A DNA stretch of 64,000 bases from the human T2T-CHM13v2.0 reference genome, Homo sapiens: the NCBI RefSeq assembly GCF_009914755.1, contig NC_060940.1; one strand, written 5' to 3'. Under the pieces are notes generated by a model. It did not search any database and was not told where the DNA came from. It saw nothing but the letters and a program-made list of their open reading frames with translations. How positions within the stretch are numbered: the first letter of the stretch is position 1; the number at the start of each line of letters is the position of its first letter. The position numbers and the translations under genes were made by a program. This document shows positions 14,102 through 32,387 of this stretch, in pieces.

Positions 14102-14508
14102 GCCTGGGCGACAAGAGTGAAACTCCATCTCAAAAAACAAAAAAACAAACAAAAAAGAAGATGTTCCCTTTGCCAACCTCTTGCAATCCTTCTGAACAAG
14201 TCAAGGAGAGGGTTTCTAGTAGTGTCGGTATGCCACGAACACCTCCTTGACCTTTAGTAACCCCTGTTTTTAACCAGCGAAGAGCAACCCTTAAGCTTAT
14301 TGGGCAGGAATTTAGTAACACTGTTTTGTGCTTTTTTTTAGTTACCTTCTTACTTTATAGCAATTGAGAATCATACCCATTTGTGAAAGAGATATATTTC
14401 CTTTTTTAAGTGCATTTGCAACTCTAAAAAAGAAAGAAGGAGGGGGAAAAAATCTAAGTAACGAATTTCTTGGTAAAAACATCACACCATTCTACCCATT
14501 GCTACAGT
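14102..14508. repeat. Inverted duplication, source arm (407 bp)
   Basis: Begins inside the full-length AluS at 13848-14155, so this arm is the original. Confidence 0.97.
14371..14423 (-). pseudogene. NCOA5-like putative terminal exon (ELQMHLKKEIYLFHKWV*)
   Basis: Long pyrimidine tract plus tag acceptor, phase 1, in-frame TGA. No homology evidence; placed by position and phase only. Confidence 0.4.
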
Positions 14509-14535
14509 TTCTTGAGATCTCCAACAGCCTAGAAC

Positions 14536-14732
14536 TGTGCTGTCCAGCATGGTAGCCACCGGCTGCATGTGACTATGGTCATTTCTATTAACTAAAATTA
14601 AAAATTCAGTTCTTCAGTTGTACTCTCCACATTTTAAGTGCTCAAGAGCCACATGTAGCTAAGGGCTACTGTATTGGATGGCACAACCCTAGAGTGTTTC
14701 CCCCATCATAGAAAGTTCTACCGGACAGCACT
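14536..14732 (-). mobile_element. MER3 (hAT-Charlie)
   Basis: ctgtgctgtcca...gtagccac and catagaaagttcta..ggacagcac termini. Confidence 0.8.
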
Positions 14733-14770
14733 AGCCTAGAATGCCACTCACAGCTCACCTGGCTACTCAC

Positions 14771-14885
14771 CTGATGGCAGTGCTAAAAGGCCTGGCTTCT
14801 CTTCAAGTACTGGGCGCTTGGCAGGCTTGGGGAAGCCTAGGGGATCCTTCAGGGCACCCCAAAGGGTTATGCCTCTTGGAGAGGC
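14771..14885 (-). pseudogene. NCOA5-like pseudo-exon 11 (...ALKDPLGFPKPAKRPVLEEKPGLLALPS)
   Basis: Pyrimidine tract plus ggcag acceptor and consensus CAG|gtgagt donor; 115 nt, implying one +1 shift if phase 1-1. Confidence 0.7.
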
Positions 14886-15122
14886 CTGCCACAAGCAGGG
14901 GAGGGAAAAACAGACCTTCGGGGTTGACCAGTCCTGCAGAGAACAAAAACAAAAATATAGACAGGGGTAAACATGATAAATCCAGTTCTGGCTGCTCTCC
15001 CCAAAGGGATCTTTCTTCATCTTTAGAGAGGGGCTAAGTAGGAAGTAACCTGCCACTCCCGCCAGGCTCTGACTTAGCCCTGCAAGCTCCACCAAGTCTT
15101 CTTTAGACCCAGAGAAAGCCAT

Positions 15123-28429: not shown

Positions 28430-28515
28430 TGAAGGGAGAGCACCAGGGTCGCCGCTCCGGTTGTCTTCATTCCCTTTTGAAGAATCAGCCACATTTCCCC
28501 CGTAATCCCTCAATG
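28430..28515 (-). pseudogene. NCOA5-like pseudo-exon 3 (86 nt, phase 2-1; [26 protein letters not shown])
   Basis: ttaacag acceptor, A|gtaaga donor. Two TGA stops explicable as CGA>TGA. Confidence 0.65.
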
Positions 28516-31500
28516 CTGTTAAATATGCATTGAAATTATTTTTCAATATTTCATAAAATATTCATAATTTCATAACTGAAAAATATGAAAATATTTTTTC
28601 AAATATTTTGCGGATGTATTTTCCCCTCTAAGTGTACCCCCAAAAGCCAAAAAGCAAATACCAGATCACCCAGCGCAATCTATAGTCACTAAAGCCTGTG
28701 TCTATCTGCAGGTAAATGTCGCTCCATAGTCTGCTCTGCTCTTATTTTAGTGTTTTATAAATTTCTAGGATTTTCTGCCCTTTCCATTTGTTTCCTCTTG
28801 CCCATGGAGATGAAAAGTGCTATATGGAGCCACTGATCTTTGTTATAGATTAGATAGAAAGATAGCTAGAGCTATATATTCACACTTTAAGGTGTTTAGT
28901 CCAAAGGGTTTGAGATAATTTTATCAGAAGCGTTCATCTTTAAAATTGGGGATGCTCCTCTTGGAAGGTCTTCATTGGATATGGATATGAGTAAAGAATG
29001 AGTGAACAAGATCTGCTCCCTTTACTTATAAACGCTCCACAGCGCCTGTGAGCAGGCTATTTTCCCTTGCTAAAGACATGCAAAATAGTGCACAGATGCT
29101 GGGTCATCTATCAGCTGTCTAAATAGTCCCTTTTGCTGTGATTTAACAGAAGAAAGGGAGAAGTAGATGTACGCTGTACCCTAAATCAGGCATTTTTACT
29201 GTGGCTCCCCAGGATCCAGACACCAATGTTTCTGTCCACAAGGAATGTCCTGACAGGGACTGAACCACGCTGGCGGGCAGCAATTAGCTGTTATCTAGCA
29301 AGAGGCGTCAGGCTGCACGGCGAGGCGGCCCCGAAGTGCACTCCGCAAACCATGACTACTCAGCAAGCTGCCTGCGAGCGTTCGTCCCTGTGCTTCCCCC
29401 CTTTCCGATGTTTATTCGGGTTGCTGTCCACAGCCAGCCTCCCAACAGACATTTCCAAGCAAAGCTCTTGCCTGAGTCCATGCCTCCCGCTACTGCCCTG
29501 AGAATCCTGAGCTGCACACAATGCTTCCCTCTCCGGAGCAGGCTTCATTTGTCTATTTGTCTTTGACCAACACCGGCCATTGATTCTAGAGGCCGTTCTG
29601 TAAGCCAACTGCTTTTCCTAACCCTTGCTGCCTTTTGTTCTTGCTGGCTTTCCCTCACACTTTCTACACTTTCTTTTGTTGTTATCATTGTTGTTTTTAG
29701 AGACAGGCTCTTGCTCTGTTGCCCACAGCCTGGGCACGATCAGTAGCGCGATCCTGACTCACTGTAGCCCAGAACTCCTGGGCTCAAGGGATCCTCCCAC
29801 CTTAGCCTCCCAAGCAGGTGGGAGTATGGGTGCACGCCACCATACCTAGCTAATCTTTTTATTTTTTGTAGAGATGGGGTCTCACTAAGTTGCCCAGGCT
29901 GGTCTCAAACTCCTGGCTTCAAGTGATCCACCCACTTCAGTCTTCCAAAGTGGTAGGATTACAGGCATGAGCTACCATACCTGGCCATAGACACTTTCTT
30001 TTAATGAAGTGGTAGGTAAACACCACCACCACCAAACAATTAGAGGTGACTGTGAGGAGCCTGGGAAGCCAGTACCTGGTCATCCAGGGAAGGCAGCCTA
30101 ATGTTGACAATGCAATTGGGTTTGAATCTCAGCTCTGTCGCTTACAAGCTGAGTAGCCTTGATTAAGTTACTTGACATCATCATGACTATTTCCTCACCT
30201 GTAACACGGGGATTATTAATCGACCCTACCTCTTAGTGCTATTATGAGATTGAATGAACTAATACAGGCAATATCCTCAGAATGGTGCCTGATGCAGTGT
30301 GGGCCCTGAGTCAGTGTTGGCCATTGTGATCCATCTCTGCCTTTAGGTTTCTTTCAGGTCAAGGCTAAGAAGATCTCCTTCAGAAGACCACCCAACAGTG
30401 CAGGTATTCCAGGTCTCATCTTCAGGAAATGTTACTGAGAAGAACTAACCTCCATGAACAGTCACTCCTGAATTCTACACTTCCAAGTGCTTCCGCAGTC
30501 GAGGAAAGCATTTTTCAATTCTGAATTATTAATCTAATCTGACACAAATCTCATCTTTAATGCAAGTGAGAGAGAGGCCCTGTCAAGGTTCATATATATA
30601 AAAATCAATTCAAATACAGTTCAAGGAAAACTGTTTTTACCAAAACTACAGAGAAAGATTTAAGGCAAGAATCTTAAACTGCCATGTTGATTTACCCATG
30701 TAGTTACTTAGAGGAACTTCACTGCTGAATATAAAAGCCAGAGTAAACAAAATAAAGTCGCCTTCAAAAGTGATTTATATTCTCGAGGCCAGGTGTGGTG
30801 GCTCATGCCTATAATCCCAGCACTCTGGGAGGCCGAGGCAGGCAGATCACTTGAGGTCAGGAATTCAAACCAGCCTGGCCAATATGGTGAAACCCTGTCT
30901 CTACTAAAATACAAAAATTAGCCAAGTGTGGTGGTGCATGCCTGTAGTCCCAGCTACTCAAGAGTCTGAGGCAGGAGAATAGCTTGAACCTGGGAGGAGG
31001 AAGTTGCAGTGAGCCGAGATCGCACCCCTGCATTCCAGCCTGGGCAATAGACTGAGACTCCGTCTCAACTTAAAAAAGAGAAAAAAAAGTGATTTACATA
31101 CTCGAGAATGCTACGCAGTGGTTACAAACAATGAGGATGAAGACTCCTTCATGATACACAGTTAAGTGAAAGAAACAAGTCCAGGACAATATGCCAGGGC
31201 CAGCCATTTCAGTTAAAAAAAAAAGGGGTGGGGGGAAATGGGAGAGTGGGAGAGTTCTGAAAAGGGATTTTTATTTTATCTTTTTATTTTTTGTAGAGAC
31301 AGGGTCTCACTATGTTGCCCAGACTGGTCTCAGACACCTAGCTTTTGATCTTCCCTTTTTCATTTTTGTTAAGACCCTTTTCGTTCAAGGGTCTGCTATG
31401 GATAACCCACTTTTTATTATTACATGCTCTTATAGATCTATCCATTCCTGGGGTAAAAAAAAAAATCCAGTTTTAAGTGACTTATATTTTTATTTGGCTC

Positions 31501-31918
31501 TGGAGTTCTGATTTGTATCACAATAGAATACATTTACATTCTTGAGCATATACCAATGGTTAGAGGGTAGCAAAATCAAGAGGGTGAGGTGTGAGGGTGT
31601 GGAGGAAGGGATTCAAGAGTCTGCTGTGGATAACCCACAAAGCAGGTGACCCACACCAAAACAATGGAAGAACAAAAAGGCCTGGGGGGCTAAGTCCTTC
31701 AGTCTGTAGGTATATTTTAGCCACTAAAGTCTAAGTGACTACAGAAAGGTAAAAGTTAAAGCAGAATGGCTTAATCTGATCAACTTGAACTGAGGGACTT
31801 CCCAAAAGCAAATATTAATGACATCAATTTTAACAAACATCTAAGTCTGCACAGTAAGAAAGCATTTGAATTACTACTAAAGCTTTTAGCAAATTGTGCC
31901 ACGACAATAAAATTTTAC

Positions 31919-31996
31919 CTTAGCATGTCTTCACCCTCCTTTAAGTAGCCCTCTTGGGGTGAATAAGAAGTTGGCAGAAAAGGTTTATATGGCTTA
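31919..31996 (-). pseudogene. NCOA5-like pseudo-exon 2 (78 nt, phase 2-2; KPYKPFLPTSYSPQEGYLKEGEDML)
   Basis: Long T-tract plus gcag acceptor, AAG|gtaaaa donor, open frame, length a multiple of 3. Confidence 0.7.
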
Positions 31997-32243
31997 CTGC
32001 AAAAAAAAAAAAAAGACAAAATTACACTTCAGAAGAAATTATTTCCCATAGTTCCTACATTAGTTTCCACAGTTCTGGTACACTCAGGGGTGATTAAATC
32101 CTCAGTTAAACTGGATTTTAAAATCTCAAACAATGGCCTTTCTCAAGGTTTGTTTTTTTTTTTTCAGAAGCTCTAACTCTATTTTGTAATGCCTATTTCT
32201 ATTTCTGCCTAGCTTGTTTGTTCAACTACTTTTGCAGAGTTGA

Positions 32244-32387
32244 CAACTGAACGCACAGCGCTGGCTCAGGGAGAGGCAGGAAACTCACCAGCAGAAAAGG
32301 GCTTCCACACAATGCATCTGATTTGCCCAACTGAACGAAACTCAACCCGAAAGTAAATAGGTAAATGCCGGTAGTAATTGGCAGTTA
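32244..32387 (-). promoter_or_regulatory. Candidate promoter: MYB-type motifs plus CCAAT box
   Basis: CAACTGAACG twice (32244, 32328), CAGTTA (32382) and ATTGG (32377) around putative exon 1. Confidence 0.35.
32289..32317 (-). pseudogene. NCOA5-like pseudo-exon 1 (putative ATG; MHCVEALFC, ends phase 2)
   Basis: ATG at 32317, consensus donor TG|gtgagt at 32288, phase matches exon 2. Confidence 0.5.

What the first reader, a model, noticed from the sequence alone, without database searches (positions are those of the whole stretch)
14371..32317. Hidden 12-exon NCOA5 paralogue, dead in this lineage
No ORF reveals it, but the unique islands between Alus contain minus-strand exons whose phases chain 2|2-2|2-1|1-2|2-1|1-2|2-2|2-1|1-1|1-1|1-1|1 once frameshifts are corrected. 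Exons 7-9 reproduce the NCOA5 class-II aaRS anticodon-binding-like domain and the downstream helices. Exon 8 shows ~34% identity to NCOA5 as I recall it, too low for a recent copy, and introns are present. This implies an ancient paralogue with an RS-rich N-terminus, NCOA5 domain and Pro/Leu-rich tail that was functional in ancestors and later lost. It probably corresponds to the catalogued but uncharacterised NCOA5LP; the name and 16q12.1 location are recall.
Basis: partly seen in the sequence, partly recalled or inferred. Interest (0 to 1): 0.9.

Follow-up and report, generated by a model that had tools for sequence, protein, structure and literature searches.

The report
Dead human copy of NCOA5-like gene

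Summary
The core of the finding holds. The minus strand carries a dead, intron-bearing relative of NCOA5, which is the annotated NCOA5LP. NCOA5 derived from chr20 gives five collinear top matches, and no shuffle reaches the real score (0 of 100; 0 of 200).

A separate protein family, named "nuclear receptor coactivator 5-like" in fishes, amphibians, reptiles and many mammals, matches much better. One exon is 27/27 identical.

In a tree the human reading nests inside the eutherian NCOA5-like clade, apart from NCOA5. It is therefore an ancient paralogue and most likely a unitary pseudogene.

- Orthologue proteins support 9 coding exons, not 12.
- These exons span 48726 to 11516.
- No RS-rich N-terminus was found.
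- The intron phases are 2,2,1,2,1,1,1,1, and the first six equal those of NCOA5.

At least nine frameshifts, two premature stops and three missing splice dinucleotides disable the gene.

The locus is already catalogued, so interest is modest.

The parts
48671..48726 (-). Coding exon 1 (E1). The ATG at 48726 is kept. The first 13 codons are 12/13 identical to the Vicugna NCOA5-like protein. A frameshift follows, and there is a TAG at codon 17 of the ATG frame. The 3' end (48671) is tentative.
   Evidence: tblastn (P0280 aa 1-13, 92%); 11 of 116 proteins hit 48688-48756; three-frame view
31919..31996 (-). Coding exon 2 (E2), 78 nt, phase 2 to 2. The frame is open, with a poly-T/CAG acceptor and a GTAAAA donor, both intact. 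All 25 full codons equal the laurasiatherian consensus.
   Evidence: 27/27 identity to grey seal P0285, E 6.7e-12; 51 of 116 proteins hit; splice sites; per-exon counts
28430..28515 (-). Coding exon 3 (E3), 86 nt, phase 2 to 1. Homology moves to another frame after five codons and appears to move back near the end. There is a TGA in the entry frame. This is the upper edge of NCBI's NCOA5LP span (28516).
   Evidence: P0211 aa 51-63, 77%; 7 of 116 proteins; sequence view
27823..27949 (-). Coding exon 4 (E4), 127 nt, phase 1 to 2. Length and phases are the same as NCOA5 coding exon 4. There is an in-frame TGA at a conserved Arg.
   Evidence: orthologues 62-68% identical; 97 of 116 proteins
23086..23285 (-). 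Coding exon 5 (E5), about 200 nt, the same length as NCOA5 coding exon 5. It starts in phase 2 at the TK|DY-equivalent junction and forms the core of the anticodon-binding-like domain. Two compensating frameshifts put stops into the reading frame. There is no GT at the expected donor.
   Evidence: 116 of 116 proteins hit; segment frames
19346..19619 (-). Coding exon 6 (E6), 274 nt. It holds the helical region with an LxxLL-like HLLFLL motif. The position homologous to the NCOA5 acceptor reads GG, not AG. There are two non-compensating frameshifts. The donor G|GT (phase 1) is kept.
   Evidence: 111 of 116 proteins
17841..18034 (-). Coding exon 7 (E7), 194 nt. It starts the Pro/Leu-rich tail (a GK-L-PPLLPTPG motif and LxGDRPGG). 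There are two frameshifts and one TGA. The expected donor reads CT, not GT.
   Evidence: 41 of 116 proteins
14771..14933 (-). Coding exon 8 (E8), 163 nt. It continues the tail (KRPxLxEKPGLL). There is one frameshift. The acceptor and the GTGAGT donor are intact. This is the lower edge of NCBI's span (14763).
   Evidence: 44 of 116 proteins
11516..11574 (-). Coding exon 9 (E9). It ends ...QPVSLLN followed by TAA, at the same place as the natural stop of the Vicugna and Talpa proteins.
   Evidence: P0280 aa 377-395, 53%; P0285 and P0300 E about 1e-3 to 1e-4; only 2 of 116 proteins reach E<=0.1

Best explanation
The locus is the human remnant of NCOA5L ("nuclear receptor coactivator 5-like"). This is a sister gene of NCOA5 that separated before ray-finned fishes and tetrapods diverged. 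It is still predicted as a protein-coding gene in many fishes, amphibians, reptiles and mammals.

The ancestral protein of about 400 residues had four parts:
- a short conserved N-terminus;
- an NCOA5-type anticodon-binding-like domain, the fold of class II aminoacyl-tRNA synthetase anticodon-binding domains;
- a helical region with an LxxLL-like motif;
- a Pro/Leu-rich tail with repeated KPPPLLPTPG-like motifs.

In the human lineage the gene lost constraint and decayed in place, with its introns. All nine coding exons can still be found on the minus strand between 48726 and 11516. A ribosome starting at the conserved ATG would stop after 16 codons, and the later exons carry many more lesions. 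No intact second copy was found in the same genome. It therefore makes no NCOA5L protein, and I read it as a unitary pseudogene.

Shown: homology, exon map, lesions, and placement in the tree. Inferred: the ancestral function as a nuclear-receptor or transcription co-regulator like NCOA5, and a loss tens of millions of years ago.
For: 1. NCOA5 matches three exons in order on one strand, and no shuffle reaches the real score.
2. Junctions and phases are shared with NCOA5. E4 is 127 nt and E5 about 200 nt, the same as NCOA5 coding exons 4 and 5. The first six intron phases, 2,2,1,2,1,1, are identical.
3. A phmmer search with an NCOA5 domain protein gave 529 relatives at E<=0.001. tblastn of the 150 listed against the window picked out a distinct subset that matches far better than NCOA5.
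4. A search with one of these (P0211) found 134 proteins at E<=1e-5, of which 120 were listed. They are named NCOA5-like or uncharacterized, and come from cricetid rodents, carnivorans, alpaca, pig, hippo, moles, shrews, pangolins, xenarthrans, a colugo, marsupials, monotremes, squamates, turtles, an alligator, amphibians and fishes.
5. All 116 proteins tested hit the window. The best (grey seal) sums to 473 bits over 12 matches, with exon 2 at 27/27.
6. In a tree of 62 rows, the human reading (X at breaks) lies in the eutherian NCOA5-like clade (SH-aLRT 100), next to the rodents (83). It is 67% identical to Vicugna. The NCOA5-like clade, fishes to mammals, has support 100 and is separate from NCOA5.
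7. Domain: PF03129 scores 21.2-24.8 bits (cut-off 21) in 4 of 8 NCOA5-like proteins. The family profile hits PDB 1v95_A, 'Nuclear receptor coactivator 5', at E 2.1e-35.
8. Lesions: homology changes frame within E1, E3, E5 (twice), E6 (twice), E7 (twice) and E8 (coordinates; views). There is a TGA in E4 and another in E7.
9. A search of the own genome with the Vicugna protein finds only this locus, NCOA5 on chr20 and a decayed intronless fragment on chr2.
Against: - No orthologous genomic DNA was available. The three splice-site defects and the exact indels are therefore read from protein alignments and from the NCOA5 gene, not from DNA alignments.
- Synteny of the orthologues was not tested.
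- The orthologue proteins are database predictions, and some are visibly mis-modelled at their ends.
- Exon 9 and exon 3 rest on few or weak matches (2 and 7 of 116 proteins at E<=0.1).
- Exon 2 is untouched: open frame, both splice sites, 25/25 codons. Uniform neutral decay would produce this only about 0.7% of the time by my estimate.
- The human exon peptides alone find nothing in Pfam. One exon-5 peptide (window 23082-23210) finds nothing relevant in PDB and nothing in the word-indexed protein search.
- Only one human assembly was read.
Confidence: 0.93

Rival explanations
1. It is a younger duplicated pseudogene of NCOA5 itself, a segmental copy of the chr20 gene that then decayed, rather than the orthologue of a separate old gene family.
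For: It keeps introns at NCOA5 positions and the same phases. NCBI's name ('NCOA5 like, pseudogene') would allow this reading.
Against: - Identity to NCOA5 is only 27-36% per exon. Identity to NCOA5-like proteins is 45-100% per match and 67% overall to Vicugna.
- The tail and N-terminus match NCOA5-like proteins and not NCOA5.
- The tree puts it inside the eutherian NCOA5-like clade with support 100.
Confidence: 0.02
2. The locus is not wholly dead. Its 5' part (exon 1 start, exon 2) is still used in humans, as part of a non-coding or short-ORF transcript or as regulatory DNA, while the rest of the gene decays.
For: - Exon 2 has an open frame, intact AG and GT, and 25/25 codons equal to the consensus.
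- Other exons match at 232 of 329 majority columns and 63 of 77 invariant columns.
- The first 13 codons of exon 1 are 12/13 identical and the ATG is kept.
- RefSeq lists enhancers 32658-33659, about 0.7 kb from exon 2 (hub annotation).
Against: - The statistic is weak. On invariant columns alone exon 2 scores 10/10, against 82% elsewhere (P=0.13).
- My neutral estimate of about 0.007 becomes about 0.06 after allowing for nine exons.
- The annotation given shows no transcript.
- Rfam finds only Alu-type SRP matches in 11000-53500.
- The ATG frame stops at codon 17, so exon 2 cannot be translated from it.
Confidence: 0.08
3. The similarity is chance or repeat-derived, and there is no gene remnant.
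For: NCOA5 alone gives only modest E-values (0.009-0.17). Pfam sees nothing in the human frames.
Against: - 0 of 200 shuffles reach the chain score.
- 116 of 116 NCOA5-like proteins hit the same minus-strand exons, with best E of about 1e-11 to 1e-21 for the six best-supported exons.
- Exon boundaries coincide with AG/GT sites and with NCOA5 junctions.
Confidence: 0.005

Closest known systems
NCOA5 (nuclear receptor coactivator 5, chr20; domain structure PDB 1V95)
   Same: - The anticodon-binding-like domain and following helices are homologous. The family profile hits 1v95_A at E 2.1e-35.
- The first six intron phases are the same (2,2,1,2,1,1). Junctions are identical at TK|DY and Q|E-HR, and the two domain exons have equal lengths of 127 and 200 nt.
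- An LxxLL-type motif sits in the same helix region. L244, L247 and L248 are invariant or nearly invariant in 33 NCOA5-like proteins.
- The role of this motif in NCOA5 is recalled from the literature and was not checked here.
   Different: - Only 27-36% identity to the human remnant.
- NCOA5 has a long Arg/Asp-rich N-terminus and a Gln/Ser/Pro-rich tail.
- NCOA5-like proteins have a short N-terminus and a Pro/Leu-rich tail with KPPPLLPTPG-like repeats, plus two more introns.
- They form separate clades, each spanning fishes to mammals. For NCOA5 the fish end of the clade is inferred from unnamed representatives.
- NCOA5 is intact in human and this locus is not.
NCOA5-like (NCOA5L) predicted genes of other vertebrates, such as Vicugna P0280, Talpa P0295, Halichoerus P0285, Mesocricetus P0272, Alligator P0157 and Polypterus P0153
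   Same: All nine coding exons are matched in order. Identity is 67% overall to Vicugna. The human reading nests in the eutherian clade at the place the species tree predicts. The stop codon is at the same place.
   Different: The human copy has at least 9 frameshifts, 2 premature stops in the homologous frame and 3 missing splice dinucleotides. The relatives are predicted as open reading frames. None of them has a described function in the papers I could search.
Human unitary pseudogenes in general (genes lost in place, with no functional copy left)
   Same: Introns are kept and decay is in place. No intact copy was found elsewhere in the genome. Relatives are predicted as intact genes in other mammals.
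   Different: Nothing unusual for the class, except the untouched exon 2 and the partial intronless copy on chr2.

Membership tests
NCOA5-like (NCOA5L) gene family: human orthologue, as a pseudogene | Exon-by-exon similarity to NCOA5-like proteins that is clearly higher than to NCOA5 | tested here: met
   116 of 116 proteins hit. Best sum is 473 bits, against single hits of at most 30.4 bits for NCOA5.
NCOA5-like (NCOA5L) gene family: human orthologue, as a pseudogene | Falls inside the NCOA5-like clade at the position expected from the species tree | tested here: met
   (quick IQ-TREE, 62 rows): eutherian clade SH-aLRT 100, grouped with cricetid rodents at 83. No bootstrap was run and the root is at the midpoint only.
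NCOA5-like (NCOA5L) gene family: human orthologue, as a pseudogene | Conserved gene neighbourhood (ZNF423 ... CNEP1R1) in species with an intact gene | not testable with these tools
   No vertebrate genome other than the window's own was available.
NCOA5 family / HGTP_anticodon-like domain (Pfam PF03129; PDB 1V95) | Domain recognised by profile | tested here: inconclusive
   Human frames give no hit, and one exon-5 peptide (window 23082-23210) gives no PDB hit to 1v95. Orthologues score PF03129 at 21.2-24.8 bits (cut-off 21) in 4 of 8, one at 20.5 and three with none. NCOA5 itself gives none at E<=0.01. The family profile hits 1v95_A at E 2.1e-35.
NCOA5 family / HGTP_anticodon-like domain (Pfam PF03129; PDB 1V95) | Shared intron positions and phases with NCOA5 | tested here: met
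   Phases 2,2,1,2,1,1 are shared. Positional homology is shown for the junctions flanking E4 and E5.
Processed (retrotransposed) pseudogene | No introns; exons contiguous | tested here: not met
   Exons are spread over 37 kb with AG/GT boundaries. A separate intronless partial copy does exist on chr2.
Unitary pseudogene | Disabled reading frame | tested here: met
   Frame changes within E1, E3, E5, E6, E7 and E8 (coordinates). TGA in E4 and E7. TAG at codon 17 of the ATG frame.
Unitary pseudogene | No functional copy elsewhere in the same genome | tested here: met
   One search gave 8 matches: 5 at this locus, 2 at NCOA5 and 1 at the decayed chr2 fragment. The search scores only the best candidates.

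The most novel reading that the evidence does not exclude
Exon 2, and perhaps the start of exon 1, of the dead gene is still under selection in humans. This 78-nt exon keeps its frame, both splice sites and every one of its 25 codons, while the rest of the gene shows decay equal to roughly 0.09 substitutions per site. It may survive as part of an unannotated transcript, or as regulatory DNA beside the RefSeq enhancers at 32658-33659.
Probability: 0.08. Interest if true: 0.5.

Novelty: already known. Interest (0 to 1): 0.3.

Why it matters
For the human genome this is one more catalogued unitary pseudogene.

Three things are useful:
The remnant spans 48726-11516.
- The parent family, NCOA5-like, is conserved from fishes to many mammals. 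None of the 120 listed relatives is a primate, a Mus or Rattus, or a bird. That is a lead, not proof of absence. It may be why I found no paper on it: one passing mention, and 0 hits.
- It keeps an NCOA5-type domain and an LxxLL-like motif, so it may be an unstudied nuclear-receptor co-regulator. It would have to be studied in hamster, dog, frog or zebrafish rather than in human or mouse.

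Tried and rejected
- **Pfam on human frames.** 139 minus-strand frames gave nothing relevant.
- **PDB with one human exon peptide.** Only two chance rows at E 1.5.
- **Word-indexed protein search with the same peptide.** No candidate. The database does hold the relatives, so this was a sensitivity failure.
- **First chain statistic.** It was swamped by tiny matches: real 154.7, shuffles mean 182.9. 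I replaced it with a penalised chain.
- **Global MAFFT of short human pieces with NCOA5 proteins.** It scattered them, and one piece was given in the wrong frame. I did not use it.
- **--addfragments placement.** It misplaced two 5-residue pieces, and one segment was off by one base. This was corrected, where one 5-residue piece (E6a) was still mis-mapped. That piece adds 5 majority columns, 3 of them matching, to the totals.
- **The Pro/Leu-rich frame at 16860-17177.** I considered it as an exon. It has only E 2-13 similarity to the tail and no hit at E<=0.1, so I rejected it.
- **An RS- or RD-rich N-terminus.** Sought in 28560-32317 and none found.
- **Rfam over 11000-53500.** Only three Alu-type SRP matches.

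Full report
**What was checked first**

The window is human chr16 (T2T), according to the hub annotation. Stop-to-stop frames on the minus strand of 14000-33000 show no long gene. A Pfam scan of 139 of them found nothing relevant at E<=1. By eye, the frames at 23082-23317 resembled the NCOA5 domain with a frame change between them.

**Getting a reference without using memory for sequence**

The window's own genome could be searched. A short degenerate pattern for a ten-residue NCOA5 motif hit once, on contig 20. I fetched 50 kb around it. I read the NCOA5 coding exons from open frames and AG/GT sites. They give seven coding exons, 579 residues and intron phases 2,2,1,2,1,1.

**Is the similarity real?**

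tblastn of this NCOA5 against the 64-kb window gives five top matches. All are on the minus strand and in gene order:
- aa 174-210 at 27932..27822 (E 0.009);
- aa 210-260 at 23287..23136, in two frames (E 0.011);
- aa 285-393 at 19597..19287, in two frames (E 0.17).

Identity is 27-36%.

Shuffled NCOA5 domain sequences never reach the real values. The best single match is 30.4 bits, against a maximum of 26.6 in 100 shuffles. The penalised chain scores 22.2, against a maximum of 12.1 in 200 shuffles. The window exon at 27949..27823 is 127 nt with phases 1 to 2, exactly as NCOA5 coding exon 4.

**The real parent family**

The word-indexed database holds vertebrate proteins. A domain-only NCOA5 entry (P0007) searched with phmmer against 1.84 billion representatives gave 529 relatives at E<=0.001.

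tblastn of the 150 listed against the window singled out a subset that matches the window far better than NCOA5 does. It also matches places NCOA5 does not, such as 31998..31921 at 81% (P0211). A search with P0211 found 134 proteins at E<=1e-5, of which 120 were listed. They are named 'nuclear receptor coactivator 5-like' or 'uncharacterized'. They come from:
- cricetid rodents, carnivorans, alpaca, pig, hippo, whales (partial), moles, shrews, pangolins, xenarthrans and a colugo;
- marsupials and monotremes;
- squamates, turtles and an alligator;
- amphibians and ray-finned fishes.

No primate, Mus, Rattus or bird is among the 120 listed. This is a list of predicted proteins, not a test of absence. 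[quoted passage not shown] I saw one passage of it (10.64898/2026.05.21.726804).

**Exon map**

All 116 NCOA5-like proteins tested hit the window. At E<=0.1 the minus-strand clusters are as follows.

| Position | Proteins hitting (of 116) | Note |
|---|---|---|
| 52.8 kb | 4 | weak; bear isoforms |
| 48.7 kb | 11 | |
| 31.9 kb | 51 | |
| 28.5 kb | 7 | |
| 27.9 kb | 97 | |
| 23.2 kb | 116 | |
| 19.4 kb | 111 | |
| 18.4 kb | 1 | I judge it repeat-derived; not checked further |
| 17.9 kb | 41 | |
| 14.9 kb | 44 | |
| 11.5 kb | 2 | |

Nothing lies in 28.6-31.85 kb or 15.1-17.8 kb.

With the three-frame views, the coding exons are:
- E1 48726..48671 (3' end tentative)
- E2 31996..31919
- E3 28515..28430
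- E4 27949..27823
- E5 23285..~23086
- E6 ~19619..19346
- E7 18034..17841
- E8 14933..14771
- E9 11574..11516

The intron phases are 2,2,1,2,1,1,1,1. The first six equal those of NCOA5.

**Lesions**

| Exon | Lesions |
|---|---|
| E1 | Frame change after codon 13; TAG at codon 17 of the ATG frame |
| E3 | One frame change, probably a second that compensates; TGA in the entry frame |
| E4 | In-frame TGA at a conserved Arg |
| E5 | Two compensating frame changes, which keep the exon at about 200 nt but put stops in the reading frame; no GT at the expected donor |
| E6 | Two frame changes; GG where NCOA5 has its acceptor AG |
| E7 | Two frame changes; TGA in the homologous frame; CT at the expected donor |
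| E8 | One frame change |

The frame changes are read from segment coordinates. The TGA codons are seen. The splice sites are seen. The splice defects are inferences from protein alignment and from the NCOA5 gene, because no orthologous DNA was at hand.

**Placement**

I built a tree of 62 rows with the quick IQ-TREE method and SH-aLRT support only:
- 27 named NCOA5-like proteins;
- 6 named NCOA5 proteins plus the chr20-derived one;
- 27 unnamed representatives;
- the human reading, with X at every break.

The human reading falls in the eutherian NCOA5-like clade (support 100), next to the two cricetid rodents (83). The NCOA5-like clade, fishes to mammals, has support 100. It is separate from the NCOA5 clade. 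The human end branch (0.30) is longer than those of the other eutherians (0.08-0.23).

This rules out a recent copy of NCOA5. It supports an old paralogue that split before ray-finned fishes and tetrapods diverged.

**Domain**

PF03129 (HGTP_anticodon) scores 21.2-24.8 bits against a cut-off of 21 in 4 of 8 NCOA5-like proteins. One scores 20.5 and three score nothing. Mammalian NCOA5 gives no hit at E<=0.01.

A profile of 33 NCOA5-like proteins hits the solved chain 1v95_A, 'Nuclear receptor coactivator 5', at E 2.1e-35. The family consensus shows a conserved HLLFLL (LxxLL-type) motif and KPPPLLPTPG-type repeats in the tail.

The RS-rich N-terminus is not. The orthologues have none, and the window has no such frame in 28560-32317.

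**Unitary status**

The Vicugna protein searched against the whole own genome finds this locus, NCOA5 and one more place, chr2:9016810-9016995 (E 0.0058). That place is a decayed, intronless stretch matching residues 1-116, which is exons 1-4 joined (E about 2e-11 to 4e-11 in a 14-kb search). It has stops and no visible poly-A tail. No intact copy was found.

**Age (inference)**

At columns invariant among 15 eutherian orthologues, the human reading differs at 14 of 77. If those changes are neutral, this means roughly 0.09 substitutions per site. About ten frameshifting indels in about 1.2 kb fit that figure. It implies tens of millions of years without constraint. I cannot place the loss on the primate tree.

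**An oddity**

Exon 2 is untouched. It scores 25/25 at majority columns, against 232/329 elsewhere, and both splice sites are intact. With the rate above, the chance is about 0.007, or about 0.06 after allowing for nine exons. On invariant columns alone the result is not significant (10/10 against 82%, P=0.13). I record it as unexplained, not as evidence of function.

**Literature**
- 'NCOA5LP' gave 0 papers.
- 'coactivator 5-like / NCOA5L / NCOA5-like' gave 2 papers, one of them irrelevant.
- 'NCOA5' with 'unitary pseudogene' gave 0.
- 'ch211-216l23.2', a zebrafish name offered by the Atlas, gave 0.

The library lacks most subscription journals.

**Verdict**

This is a real and correctly identified dead paralogue that is already catalogued.

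Noticed in passing
G000:C2:9016822-9017140 (locus L008), minus strand: An intronless, decayed copy of NCOA5-like residues 1-116 (exons 1-4 joined). It has stops and ends exactly at the exon 4/5 junction. No poly-A tail is visible. It looks like an old partial retrocopy, which suggests the gene was once transcribed and spliced in the germ line of an ancestor.
   Followed up: partly
window 31919-31996 (-): Exon 2 of the dead gene is completely intact. The frame is open, the acceptor and donor are kept, and 25/25 codons equal the consensus, while the other exons are heavily damaged. RefSeq enhancers lie about 0.7 kb away at 32658-33659.
   Followed up: partly
proteins P0035 and P0054 (Gavialis and Pelodiscus NCOA5), also P0034, P0003 and P0004: NCOA5 of crocodilians, turtles and some fishes carries an N-terminal RRM_1 domain (P0035, E 1.7e-13) that mammalian NCOA5 lacks. 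Two fish models of 1097-1288 residues score double, as if two domain copies were fused in the model.
   Followed up: no
window 16860-17177 (-): A 106-residue Pro/Leu-rich open frame that looks like the NCOA5-like tail. It has only E 2-13 similarity to it and no orthologue hit at E<=0.1. It is probably what tempted an extra exon.
   Followed up: yes
window 52760-52921 (-): A weak match (E 0.03-0.06, 35-48% identity) to the N-terminal extension of four bear isoforms. It may be an upstream alternative exon or noise.
   Followed up: no
proteins P0308 (Dasypus) and P0313 (Sus): These models go from exon 1 straight to exon 3. Exon 2 is 78 nt, so skipping it keeps the frame. It may be a cassette exon.
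   Followed up: no
window 38963-39110 (-), 40922-41069 (+), 47584-47700 (+): Rfam Metazoa_SRP matches just above threshold (70.2-72.4 bits). I read these as Alu elements inside intron 1 of the dead gene.
   Followed up: no
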